From an uncultured Carboxylicivirga sp. (lineage in GTDB: Bacteria; Bacteroidota; Bacteroidia; Bacteroidales; Marinilabiliaceae), in the NCBI GenBank assembly GCA_963674565.1, contig OY771430.1, forward strand, positions 3,032,879 to 3,096,878: 64,000 nt of DNA. Reading direction: 5' to 3'. A program made the position numbers and the translations under genes. Below, piece after piece: positions 49,535 to 50,303 of the stretch. Within the stretch, counting starts at the first letter, position 1. Every line of letters begins with the position of its first letter. The notes below the pieces were generated by a model. That model did no database searches. It saw only the letters and a list, made by a program, of their open reading frames with translations, and was not told the DNA's origin.

Positions 49535-50054
49535 TTTAAAACTTGTGTTTGGTTGCAGCTTACAGTAAGATACTTCTAATCATTTCAACTCAAAAGTAAC
49601 CATTTTCATCATATTTGAAATTGATTTATTTATTGACTGACTATTTTATGGAATCACTTATTTTTTTACAATAAATGATTCCTTCTTTTTGTTTTTTTCA
49701 CTTCTCTCGTTTATTATTTGCTTTATTCAATCACTCAATATCATTTTATCAATAAAAAATGCATTCAAAAATTCAAATTATAACTAATCAATTCACATTT
49801 ACATCAAACATCAATCAGAACCGCCATTTTTAACTAAAAGCCATGAAATTTTCATCAATCAAGAGTACAACACCCCATTTAAACTGAAATTAAAAGACAA
49901 TAAATGTCTTTTAAAACACATCACCCCCTTTATTTCATGTTATCCTTTTATTTTTTATTGTTTTTTTCACGCCACCCCCCTCTAATTTTAATGTTTTTAT
50001 ATTTTTTAACATATTTTTGTTTGTACAATTCAAAATAACCCCCATCTTTGTAAT

Positions 50055-50133
50055 GGATTTTTTCATAAAACTTGGATTTAGTTAGCTGATTTAAGGGTAG
50101 GGACAGATAAACGTATCTGTCCTACTTTTTTTT
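50055..50133 (+). ncRNA. Candidate small RNA, copy 1
   Basis: Preceded by TTTG-N19-CATCTTTG. Ends in a GTAGGGACAGATA-AACG-TATCTGTCCTAC hairpin plus T-run. Near-duplicated downstream. Expression is not demonstrated. Confidence 0.55.
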
Positions 50134-50226
50134 AAAATCAAAACTCAATTTAGGTTTAACAAATAATTAGTCTGTTGTTAACTTACGCATAACACGACAA
50201 TAAAAAAATCCCACCAAATTTGCATT

Positions 50227-50303
50227 GGATTTTTTCATATAACTGGGATTTAGTTAGCTGATTTAAGGGTAAGGACAGGTAAACGTATCTGTCCTCTTTT
50301 TTT
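50227..50303 (+). ncRNA. Candidate small RNA, copy 2
   Basis: Paralog of copy 1, preceded by CAAATTTG, ending in an AGGACAGGTA-AACG-TATCTGTCCT hairpin plus T-run. Confidence 0.55.

What the first reader, a model, noticed from the sequence alone, without database searches (positions are those of the whole stretch)
50043..50303. Tandem pair of ~78-nt sRNA-like units whose 5' seed is antisense to AUG-AAA-AAA start regions
Two near-identical units lie 170 bp apart in an ~830-bp gene-free region. Each reads CAnnTTTG, a few nt, GGATTTTTT(T)CATA(A/T)AACT(T/G)GGATTTAGTTAGCTGATTTAAGGGTA(G/A)GGACAG(A/G)TAAACGTATCTGTCCT, then a T-run: promoter-like box, unstructured 5' region, intrinsic terminator. The reverse complement of the copy 1 5' part is CTAACTAAATCCAAGTTTT-ATG-AAA-AAA-TCC, which looks like a Bacteroidota A-rich translation initiation region plus an MKK signal-peptide start. 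Within this window, 12 nt (50059-50070) are complementary to the start of the DsbD-N gene (51695-51706); the match is low-complexity. Inference: a paralogous trans-acting sRNA family that blocks translation of many exported-protein mRNAs. It is conceptually similar to paralogous sRNAs reported in Bacteroides thetaiotaomicron, but homology is untested.
Basis: partly seen in the sequence, partly recalled or inferred. Interest (0 to 1): 0.72.

Follow-up and report, generated by a model that had tools for sequence, protein, structure and literature searches.

The report
Tandem FopS-like small RNA genes
Two adjacent ~77-nt genes in a marine Carboxylicivirga genome most likely encode small regulatory RNAs whose 5' end mirrors the start region of SusC-type nutrient-transporter mRNAs, which makes them a so far undescribed, divergent counterpart of the FopS RNAs of gut Bacteroides.

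Summary
Two units lie 172 nt apart (predicted RNAs 50055-50133 and 50227-50303, + strand). Each has a Bacteroidota-type promoter, a conserved 5' part and a hairpin plus U-run.

- **Family:** the genome (Carboxylicivirga, Marinilabiliaceae) holds five such units. All 17 congeners have 3-6, and most other genera of the family have them too.
- **Conservation:** across the genus the unit is 93-100% conserved and the flanks about 50%. The terminator stem covaries.
- **Predicted targets:** the 5' 34 nt are antisense to mRNA positions about -20 to +12. Predicted pairing is strongest for the 44 SusC-like genes, and 0 of 100 seed shuffles reached it. The result repeats in Alkaliflexus.
- **Closest known:** FopS (Rfam RF04319). 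Promoter spacing, U-run-CAU-GAUUUA seed, size and copy number match. It fails Rfam's cut-off (18.9 against 56 bits) and is linked only by reciprocal sub-threshold hits, so common descent is unproven.
- **Sister branch:** a seed-sharing family elsewhere in the genome sits behind sigma-54-type promoters.

Verdict: a new member of a known kind, of moderate interest.

The parts
50020..50023 (+). TTTG at about -33 of unit 1 (upstream promoter element)
   Evidence: Read from the sequence. The region -60 to -1 is 71-88% conserved across 16 congeners, against about 50% further out.
50043..50050 (+). -7 promoter box CATCTTTG of unit 1 (Bacteroidota TAnnTTTG type)
   Evidence: In an unbiased seed-pattern scan, 106 of 111 units with a terminator have TTTG 4-9 nt upstream of the U-run. 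Only 4 of 32 matches without a terminator do.
50055..50133 (+). Predicted sRNA 1 (type A1), about 77-79 nt, ending within the U-run
   Evidence: The 5' end is set by analogy with FopS, where TTTG + 4 nt + G is model position 1. The unit is 93-100% conserved in the genus. CM R1 scores it 83.2 bits.
50055..50088 (+). Anti-TIR seed of sRNA 1: GGAUUUUUUCAUAAAACUUGGAUUUAGUUAGCUG
   Evidence: Predicted duplexes cover mRNA -20 to +12 and include the AUG. SusC enrichment beats shuffles. The best target gives -27.4 kcal/mol.
50100..50133 (+). Intrinsic terminator of sRNA 1: 10-bp stem 50100-50123, U-run 50126-50133
   Evidence: Terminator scan. All 7 consensus pairs show compensatory changes, and 0 of 500 shuffles reach the observed values.
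50215..50222 (+). -7 promoter box CAAATTTG of unit 2
50227..50303 (+). Predicted sRNA 2 (type A2), about 77 nt. Its seed differs from A1 at two positions (CAUAUAACUGGG).
   Evidence: R1 scores it 80.1 bits. The AUAUAAC variant recurs in the second copy of relatives G014, G001, G008 and G005.
50272..50303 (+). Intrinsic terminator of sRNA 2: stem 50272-50295, U-run 50297-50303
50325..50345 (-). Separate minus-strand terminator of the HAD hydrolase gene (context, not part of the sRNAs)
   Evidence: It shows that the unit 2 hairpin is not needed to terminate the convergent gene.

Best explanation
The two units are independent genes for trans-acting small RNAs of about 77 nt.

How each is made: transcription starts from a Bacteroidota housekeeping-type promoter (TTTG at -33, CAnnTTTG at -7) at the G four nucleotides after the box. 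It ends at a Rho-independent terminator.

How each most likely works: the first 34-45 nt are largely unstructured and act as a long seed. That seed is the reverse complement of a typical local translation initiation region. The U-run pairs with the AAA-AAA lysine codons, CAU pairs with the AUG, and the UUU of GGAUUUAG pairs with the A-rich element at -11 to -13. Pairing across about -20 to +12 would block 30S binding and repress translation. The mRNAs hit hardest would be those for SusC-like TonB-dependent transporters, which are often the first gene of a polysaccharide utilisation locus. Other MKK-start exported proteins would be hit more weakly.

The genome's paralogues carry seed variants (A1, A2, B1-B3, plus a sigma-54-type branch C) that each fit a different subset of SusC leaders best.

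This is the mechanism shown experimentally for FopS in B. thetaiotaomicron. The Marinilabiliaceae family is a divergent branch of that design. Whether the two share descent is not shown.

Shown here: anatomy, conservation, terminator covariation, complementarity statistics. Inferred: transcription, repression, any role of the RRM protein.
For: Anatomy:
- Promoter box, 5' part and terminator are present in both units.
- No plus-strand gene lies downstream, and the HAD gene has its own terminator.

Family:
- The own genome has 5 strong copies at 66.6-86.6 bits.
- All 17 congeners have 3-6 copies, and 6 of 7 other genera of the family have matches.
- Named hosts include Carboxylicivirga, Saccharicrinis, Alkaliflexus, Geofilum, Anaerophaga, Marinilabilia, Thermophagus and Breznakibacter.

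Selection:
- The unit is 93-100% conserved and the flanks 45-60%.
- All 7 terminator pairs carry compensatory changes, with 0 of 500 shuffles reaching the observed values, and the loop varies freely.
- The array at the second locus sits next to the same 233-aa gene in 17 loci, including other genera.

Two clean classes of seed match:
- 111 matches have a terminator. Of these, 106 also have the promoter box, and the median antisense ORF is 17 aa.
- 32 matches have no terminator. Of these, 62% start an ORF of at least 100 aa, mostly with a signal peptide.

Targets:
- The TIR profile is A-rich at -13 to -11 and at +4 to +9.
- Duplexes of -20 kcal/mol or stronger occur at 71 TIRs against 14 internal-CDS controls.
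- SusC genes (n = 44) average -14.2 to -16.3 against -9.7 to -11.6 for all genes; five of the six sRNAs give p from 6.5e-10 to 9e-7.
- With the U-run and CAU kept and the next 22-23 nt shuffled, 0 of 100 shuffles reach the SusC mean, z about -4.
- 26 of 44 SusC genes reach -18 or stronger with some paralogue, against 11.6% of all genes. The AUG is covered in at least 94% of strong duplexes.
- In Alkaliflexus, 0 of 200 and 2 of 200 shuffles reach the observed mean for two of its three sRNAs.

Link to FopS:
- Same TTTG + 4 nt + G start, UUUUUCAU, N7, GAUUUA, (G)GUUA(A) and terminator.
- R1 finds true FopS loci at full length with 16-24.6 bits.
- RF04319 scores intermediates at 33-36 bits.
- The FopS mechanism is taken from PMC11697453.
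- An RRM_1 protein is present in this genome.
Against:
- The -7 box begins with C rather than the consensus T.
- Target statistics rest on my own crude gene calls (first ATG of ORFs of at least 80 aa). They also rest on RNAduplex energies without accessibility, in an AU-rich genome where even internal CDS windows average -10 kcal/mol.
- Part of the signal is generic to MKK-start genes: only 0-3 of 100 shuffles reach their observed mean.
- A weak internal stem (seed nt 18-28 with 33-42) is pairable in 92% of cells and the A/B-type indel falls in its loop, so part of the 'seed' may be structured.
- Rfam's FopS model does not reach threshold.
- FopS loci in other families share no neighbouring genes with these loci.
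Confidence: 0.72

Rival explanations
1. They are the same kind of sRNA but arose independently of FopS. On this view the seeds converged because both must pair with the lineage-wide Bacteroidota start-region signal (A-rich -13 to -11, AUG, AAA-AAA). This rival concerns ancestry, not mechanism.
For: RF04319 scores only 18.9-24.5 bits on these units and is beaten by an unrelated site in the genome (26.8 bits). No genome of the family reaches the FopS cut-off, while 47 of 301 other Bacteroidales genomes do. No synteny with FopS loci. The 28-nt FopS seed recurs unchanged in genera of several families, so a diverged seed in one family is unexpected under simple descent.
Against: The promoter-to-5'-end spacing is identical, and UUUUUCAU-N7-GAUUUA-(G)GUUA(A) sits in the same register. 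Reciprocal full-length sub-threshold matches fall at the exact loci. Intermediates in other families are scored by both models at 32-39 bits.
Confidence: 0.3
2. The RNAs are made, but their main job is to bind and titrate an RNA-binding protein (the single RRM_1 protein of the genome). Direct occlusion of mRNA start regions would be secondary.
For: An RRM_1 protein is present. In B. thetaiotaomicron, RbpB binds the 5' part of FopS (PMC11697453). High copy number and tandem arrays suit a dosage or sponge role. The conserved CUGAUUUAAGGG block downstream of the seed has no assigned pairing function.
Against: The nucleotide order of the seed is specifically matched to SusC leaders (0 of 100 shuffles; repeated). 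A pure protein sponge would not need that.
Confidence: 0.08
3. The units are non-transcribed repeated DNA, such as a protein-binding site cluster, a REP- or MITE-like element, or a relic of duplicated gene starts.
For: They are multi-copy, AT-rich and tandem, and there are no expression data.
Against: No terminal inverted repeats. The position is fixed and syntenic across genera. No phage match. The conserved block ends at the predicted 5' end and at the U-run. The hairpin keeps pairing through compensatory changes while its loop drifts, which is an RNA-level constraint.
Confidence: 0.05
4. The functional strand is the minus strand: a real start region (UUUUAUGAAAAAAUCC) followed by a micro-ORF, or a decoy ribosome-binding site.
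For: The reverse complement looks like a perfect local start region. A 43-aa ORF (49935-50066, minus strand) starts there.
Against: Across 111 units the antisense ORF has a median of 17 aa, and only 2% reach 100 aa. Conservation is highest in the would-be 5' UTR and collapses in the would-be coding part. On the minus strand the hairpin has no U-run after it and lies upstream of the 'gene'.
Confidence: 0.03

Closest known systems
FopS, family of paralogous sRNAs of Bacteroides thetaiotaomicron (Rfam RF04319; Ruttiger et al. 2025, PMC11697453)
   Same: - Free-standing genes of about 65-80 nt.
- A Bacteroidota housekeeping-type promoter, with the 5' end 4 nt after TTTG.
- A single-stranded 5' seed that begins (G)NNUUUUUCAU and carries GAUUUA about 7 nt later.
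- One Rho-independent terminator.
- Many paralogues per genome, some in tandem.
- Seed complementary to the start region of susC-like mRNAs.
- An RRM-1 protein in the genome.

   Different: - Seed sequence: UUUUUUCAUAAAACUUGGAUUUAGUUAG here, UUUUUCAUGGUAUUAGAUUUAAGGUUAA in FopS.
- Only 18.9-24.5 bits against a gathering score of 56.
- An extra conserved CUGAUUUAAGGG block and a possible weak internal stem.
- Confined to Marinilabiliaceae and a few MAGs, many of them marine or sediment bacteria rather than gut ones.
- Fewer copies (5, plus 4 of type C), clustered at two loci.
GibS sRNA of B. thetaiotaomicron
   Same: It shares the R1 seed (U-run-CAU) and binds translation initiation regions (PMC11697453).
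   Different: GibS is single-copy, has a second seed (R2), uses a non-canonical promoter (PM2) and regulates other targets. No second seed or PM2-type promoter was looked for here.
Qrr1-5 of Vibrio (multi-copy sigma-54-dependent sRNAs); recalled from general knowledge
   Same: Several near-identical paralogous sRNAs share one seed. The sister branch 'type C' in this genome sits behind TGGCAC-N5-TTGC boxes, like Qrr.
   Different: The two units of this finding have housekeeping-type promoters, not sigma-54 ones. There is no sequence relation, no Hfq in Bacteroidota, and the targets differ.
C-rich anti-Shine-Dalgarno sRNAs of Firmicutes (RsaE/RoxS type); recalled from general knowledge
   Same: The seed is the complement of the generic ribosome-recruiting signal, so one RNA can reach many mRNAs.
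   Different: Bacteroidota largely lack Shine-Dalgarno pairing. Here the seed mimics the complement of AUG + AAA-AAA + the A-rich -13 to -11 element.
DonS-type cis-antisense sRNAs of Bacteroides fragilis PULs (listed in PMC13750123)
   Same: RNA-level repression of polysaccharide utilisation loci.
   Different: DonS is encoded antisense inside its target PUL. These units lie far from any SusC gene and act in trans, if at all.

Membership tests
FopS (Rfam RF04319) | Score at or above the Rfam gathering threshold (56 bits) | tested here: not met
   18.9 bits for unit 1. The best family copy in the genome scores 24.5 bits, below an unrelated site at 26.8 bits. None of the 4 Marinilabiliaceae genomes sampled reaches E <= 1e-4, while 47 of 301 other Bacteroidales genomes are over the cut-off.
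FopS (Rfam RF04319) | Single-stranded 5' stretch carrying the R1/R1' seed, followed by one Rho-independent terminator; about 65-70 nt | tested here: met
   The consensus fold predicts only the terminator. The U-run-CAU and GAUUUA fall in the same register as FopS. Predicted length is 77-79 nt. Caveat: a weak internal stem is possible.
FopS (Rfam RF04319) | Canonical sigma-ABfr promoter (TTTG at -33, TAnnTTTG at -7) driving each copy | tested here: met
   CAnnTTTG lies 4 nt before the predicted 5' end in both units, and TTTG lies at -35 to -32 of unit 1. 106 of 111 units have the box. The first base is C, not T. Promoter activity was not tested.
FopS (Rfam RF04319) | Multi-copy paralogous family within one genome | tested here: met
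   5 copies at 66.6-86.6 bits, plus at least 4 seed-sharing type C units.
FopS (Rfam RF04319) | [quoted passage not shown] | tested here: inconclusive
   In silico only. SusC leaders pair best, and 0 of 100 and 0 of 200 shuffles reach the observed means.
FopS (Rfam RF04319) | Bound and antagonised by the RRM-1 protein RbpB | not testable with these tools
   One RRM_1 protein is encoded at C1:3918900-3919109 (79.7 bits). Binding is unknown.
FopS (Rfam RF04319) | Common descent with the Bacteroides FopS genes | tested here: inconclusive
   Reciprocal sub-threshold, full-length matches and shared intermediates speak for it. No synteny and a distinct seed speak against it.
Expressed bacterial sRNA (generic) | A discrete transcript with defined 5' and 3' ends | not testable with these tools
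GibS | Two seeds (R1 and R2) and the PM2 promoter motif | not tested
   No Rfam match other than FopS among Bacteroides sRNAs near threshold. R2 and PM2 were not searched for.

The most novel reading that the evidence does not exclude
FopS, the A/B-type units found here, the sigma-54-type 'type C' units and look-alikes in at least a dozen other Bacteroidales families may be one ancient superfamily of 'anti-start-region' sRNAs. Its seeds would co-evolve with the leaders of SusC-like transporter genes. Its branches would be wired to different sigma factors, a housekeeping one and sigma-54. The cell could then set translation of its outer-membrane nutrient-uptake proteins from several independent inputs.
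Probability: 0.35. Interest if true: 0.72.

Novelty: new member of a known kind. Interest (0 to 1): 0.5.

Why it matters
FopS was described in 2025, and its conservation was reported only within Bacteroidaceae of the gut (PMC11697453).

This finding shows the same design in Marinilabiliaceae, a family that includes many marine and sediment bacteria. The design is a promoter, a long 5' seed that mirrors the start region of susC-like mRNAs, and a terminator, present in several copies.

The seed here is different, and it still fits that lineage's own SusC leaders. That offers a natural test of seed and leader co-evolution. It also suggests that RNA control of polysaccharide-uptake translation is older and more general in Bacteroidales than reported.

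The sister branch behind sigma-54-type boxes, if real, would add a sigma-54 input, which I did not find described for this kind of sRNA in the papers read here. The units could also be added to genome annotation as a covariance model.

Tried and rejected
2. **Naming the organism through the HAD hydrolase.** This returned only distant Firmicutes relatives. The names came from the seed-pattern scan instead.
3. **DsbD-N as a target.** Rejected: the duplex is average (-10.0) and the 12-mer occurs 20 times in the genome.
4. **Rfam at gathering threshold.** Nothing in the region, only rRNA and tRNA elsewhere in the window.
5. **Phage origin.** No blastn match in 50,697 phage records.
6. **Synteny between these loci and FopS loci of other families.** None found.
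7. **Minus-strand micro-ORF.** Rejected on ORF lengths and the conservation pattern.
8. **Cis-leader role.** Rejected: there is no plus-strand gene downstream and each unit has its own terminator.
9. **First duplex script.** It timed out and was rerun in parallel.
10. **Earlier notes of this scan.** They held nothing on this stretch or on FopS.
11. **One Alkaliflexus variant with AAU in place of CAU.** It shows no SusC preference: 63 of 200 shuffles reach its mean.

Full report
**1. What is in the sequence**

Between two minus-strand genes lies an 834-bp gap without a credible ORF. The genes are cytochrome b (48260-49534) and a HAD-type hydrolase (50369-51154).

On the plus strand the gap holds two near-identical units, 172 nt apart start to start. 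BLAST of unit 1 finds unit 2 at 92% identity, E = 8e-28 in the 6.0-Mb genome. Each unit reads as follows:
- CAnnTTTG at 50043-50050 and 50215-50222.
- Four nucleotides, then GGAUUUUUUCAU and about 30 more conserved nucleotides.
- A 10-bp G+C-rich hairpin at 50100-50123 and 50272-50295.
- A U-run at 50126-50133 and 50297-50303.

Terminator-like sites are far above chance here: 3 against 0.2 +/- 0.5. The HAD gene has its own minus-strand terminator at 50345-50325. The unit 2 hairpin is therefore not borrowed from the neighbour, and no plus-strand gene follows that the units could lead into.

**2. It is a conserved family, not a local oddity**

The window comes from a 6.0-Mb, 36% G+C genome. A seed-pattern scan of named genomes places its relatives in Carboxylicivirga / Saccharicrinis, family Marinilabiliaceae, order Bacteroidales.

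Copies and distribution:
- The genome has five strong copies: the window pair (types A1 and A2) and three at C1:5482069-5482466 (types B1-B3). A covariance model built from 32 diverse units (A1, R1) scores them at 66.6-86.6 bits.
- All 17 congeneric genomes carry 3-6 copies, some as arrays of four to six. Six of seven other genera of the family have matches.
- Named hosts include Alkaliflexus, Alkalitalea, Geofilum, Anaerophaga, Thermophagus, Marinilabilia, Breznakibacter, Plebeiibacterium and Labilibacter, plus some Bacteroidales MAGs.

Signs of selection on an RNA:
- Across 16 congeners the block from the predicted 5' end to the U-run is 93-100% conserved. The promoter region is 71-88% conserved and everything else 45-60%.
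- The B array sits next to the same 233-aa gene in 17 loci, including other genera. The elements are therefore inherited in place and are not mobile. No phage record matches.
- The only consensus structure is the terminator. All seven pairs show compensatory changes (GGACAG/CUGUCC, GGGUAG/CUACCC, GGGCAG/CUGCCC and unrelated stems). 94% of cells are paired, and 0 of 500 shuffles reach any measure, while the loop varies freely.

**3. Two classes of seed match**

A scan of one genome per species for the seed alone (TTTTCATA-N2-5-TTGGATTTRGTTA, with no promoter or terminator in the pattern) gave 143 evaluable matches. They fall into two clean classes:
- 111 are followed by a hairpin and U-run. Of these, 106 also have TTTG 4-9 nt upstream of the U-run. 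The antisense ORF from the ATG has a median of 17 aa.
- 32 have no terminator, and only 4 of them have the box. In 62% the antisense ATG opens an ORF of at least 100 aa, nearly always with a signal peptide or lipoprotein start.

The same 24-25 nt therefore occur either as the 5' part of an sRNA-like gene or, in antisense, as the start region of exported-protein genes. This rules out the minus-strand micro-ORF reading. It also shows that perfectly complementary start regions exist in nature.

**4. Predicted targets**

I called 4562 ORFs crudely (first ATG, at least 80 aa). Their start regions are A-rich at -13 to -11 (0.52-0.59 A) and at +4 to +9. In the CAU:AUG register the U-run of the sRNA faces the AAA-AAA codons. 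The UUU of GGAUUUAG faces the -13 to -11 element.

Results with RNAduplex, using the first 34 nt against -35 to +15:
- 71 start regions reach -20 kcal/mol or stronger, against 14 internal-CDS controls.
- The genome has 44 SusC/RagA genes over the NCBIfam cut-off. Their leaders pair best with every paralogue. Means are -14.2 to -16.3 for A1, B2, B3 and C1, against -10.3 to -11.6 for all genes. Mann-Whitney p runs from 6.5e-10 to 9e-7 for five of the six sRNAs. They also beat other signal-peptide-like genes.
- With the trivial U-run-CAU kept and the following 22-23 nt shuffled, 0 of 100 shuffles reached the SusC mean for A1, B2 or C1 (z about -4). For MKK-start non-SusC genes, 0-3 of 100 did. 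For non-secreted genes, 15-41 of 100 did.
- 26 of 44 SusC leaders reach -18 or stronger with some paralogue, against 11.6% of all genes. Different paralogues are best for different leaders.
- Strong duplexes span about -20 to +12 and include the AUG in at least 94% of cases.
- The test repeats in another genus, Alkaliflexus imshenetskii, with 22 SusC leaders. Two of its three sRNAs beat 200 shuffles (0 and 2 reaching the observed mean). A variant with AAU in place of CAU does not.

Limits of these tests: the gene starts are crude, accessibility is ignored, and the AU-rich background is high.

**5. Comparison with the known**

Rfam's closest family is RF04319, FopS. It aligns at full length but scores only 18.9 bits against a gathering score of 56.

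What the literature says about FopS (PMC11697453):
- There are 14 paralogous sRNAs of about 65-70 nt in B. thetaiotaomicron.
- They have canonical sigma-ABfr promoters, a single-stranded 5' seed (R1') and one terminator.
- They bind the start region of susC mRNAs and block translation.
- The RRM protein RbpB antagonises them.
- A BLAST search reported them as conserved within Bacteroidaceae.

What I found about FopS itself:
- RF04319 is over threshold in 47 of 301 sampled Bacteroidales genomes, spread over about 22 GTDB families.
- Its 28-nt seed occurs in Bacteroides, Phocaeicola, Prevotella/Segatella, Muribaculaceae, Paludibacter, Dysgonomonas, Proteiniphilum and Parabacteroides.
- It was not detected (E <= 1e-4) in any of the four Marinilabiliaceae genomes sampled, and no site in this genome reaches the cut-off.

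Side by side:
- FopS: TAnnTTTG + 4 nt + GUGUUUUUCAU GGUAUUA GAUUUAAGGUUAA ... hairpin.
- Here: CAnnTTTG + 4 nt + GGAUUUUUUCAU AAAACUUG GAUUUAGUUAG ... hairpin.

Links between the two families:
- My model finds genuine FopS genes exactly in place and at full length, at 16-24.6 bits.
- RF04319 scores 33-36 bits on units in other families, and in one Marinilabiliaceae genome, that my model scores at 32-39 bits.

FopS loci share no neighbouring genes with these loci. The design is therefore the same, formal membership is not met, and common descent is plausible but unproven. The genome encodes one RRM_1 protein.

**6. A possible internal stem**

Seed nt 18-28 can pair with nt 33-42 (CUUGGAUUUAG / CUGAUUUAAG). 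92% of cells are pairable, two positions change on one side with pairing kept, and the indel that separates types A and B falls in the loop. Only one pair has a double change, and the stem is made of A-U and G-U pairs. It may be a metastable element or a coincidence of the internal GAUUUA repeat. It does not alter the main reading.

**7. Sister branch, outside the window**

The model also found weaker seed-sharing units in the genome: C1:4449479, 854657, 3542339 and 1385370. They read AUUUUUUUUCAUAGAUUUGGGUUAGGUUA + hairpin + U-run.

Among 36 distinct units from the genus and one other genus, 33 are preceded by TGGCA(C/U)-N5-TTGC, set 13-15 nt before the U-run. Only one has the TTTG box. Their stems covary around a conserved GCAACGG loop. 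rpoN is present in the genome. This looks like a sigma-54-driven branch of the same design. It is sequence-level evidence only.

**8. Verdict**

- The units are best read as a new, divergent member of the FopS kind of anti-start-region sRNA. Confidence in the whole statement is about 0.72. I put the narrower claim that they are expressed sRNAs somewhat higher.
- The main gap is expression data.

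Noticed in passing
own genome C1:4449479-4449592(-), 854657-854725(+), 3542337-3542403(+), 1385370-1385458(+); relatives L306, L309, L323-L352: 'Type C' units (AUUUUUUUUCAUAGAUUUGGGUUAGGUUA + hairpin + U-run) share the seed design. 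In 33 of 36 distinct units they are preceded by a sigma-54-type box, TGGCA(C/U)-N5-TTGC, and not by TAnnTTTG. The hairpin stems covary around a conserved GCAACGG loop. rpoN is present at C1:4765974-4766447.
   Followed up: partly
G-handles; named loci L378-L457: Rfam FopS (RF04319) is over its gathering score in 47 of 301 sampled Bacteroidales genomes, from about 22 GTDB families. Its 28-nt seed occurs in Paludibacter, Dysgonomonas, Proteiniphilum, Parabacteroides, Muribaculaceae and Prevotella/Segatella. That is wider than the 'Bacteroidaceae' stated in PMC11697453.
   Followed up: partly
L284/L303 (G101, tandem), L204, L197 (Prolixibacteraceae JC049): Units in other families start the same way (TTTG box, U-run-CAU) but carry reiterated GGUUUAGUUAG modules before the terminator, as if the seed had been multiplied.
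   Followed up: no
L161, L167, L170, L173, L177, L179, L217, L232, L233 and others: Real genes in other Bacteroidota (Chitinophagales, Rikenellaceae, Prevotella, Alistipes, Flavobacteriia) have start regions exactly complementary to 24-25 nt of the seed. Nearly all encode proteins with a signal peptide or lipoprotein start. That is far more than chance, so UAACYAAAUCCAA-N-AUGAAAA appears to be a recurrent leader motif.
   Followed up: partly
window 49995-50014 (-60 to -41 of unit 1): A 20-nt block upstream of the promoter (TTTTATATTTTTTAACATAT) is 88% conserved across 16 congeners, while its surroundings are 46-66% (upstream) and 71% (downstream). It may be a regulator site or an UP-like element.
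   Followed up: no
B-type units, e.g. own genome C1:5482200-5482235; L140-L148: B-type promoters share a conserved TCACTATAA / TTTCACCGA block at about -35 in place of the usual TTTG.
   Followed up: no
L165, L191, L053 (Geofilum, Alkaliflexus): A variant unit has AAU where all others have CAU (GGAUUUUAAUAAAACCUGGAUUUAGUUAAUCGG). It shows no preference for SusC leaders: 63 of 200 shuffles reach its mean.
   Followed up: partly
own genome C1:4364603-4364664(-) and 1597795-1597868(-): Two degenerate or divergent family matches (25.9 and 37.9 bits). The second keeps UUCAUAGAUUUGGAUUUUAAGUUAGGG and a good terminator but has no recognisable promoter box.
   Followed up: no
window 45064-45391 (+): Three tandem tRNA genes lie at 128-nt spacing just downstream of the multihaem cytochrome/TPR gene.
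   Followed up: no
own genome SusC leaders at 5147082 and 5160379; Alkaliflexus L356, L362: SusC leaders are conserved across genera (uccuauuuauuaauuuaaaccuuu...AUGAAGAAAGU), including the stretch predicted to pair with type C and type B seeds.
   Followed up: no
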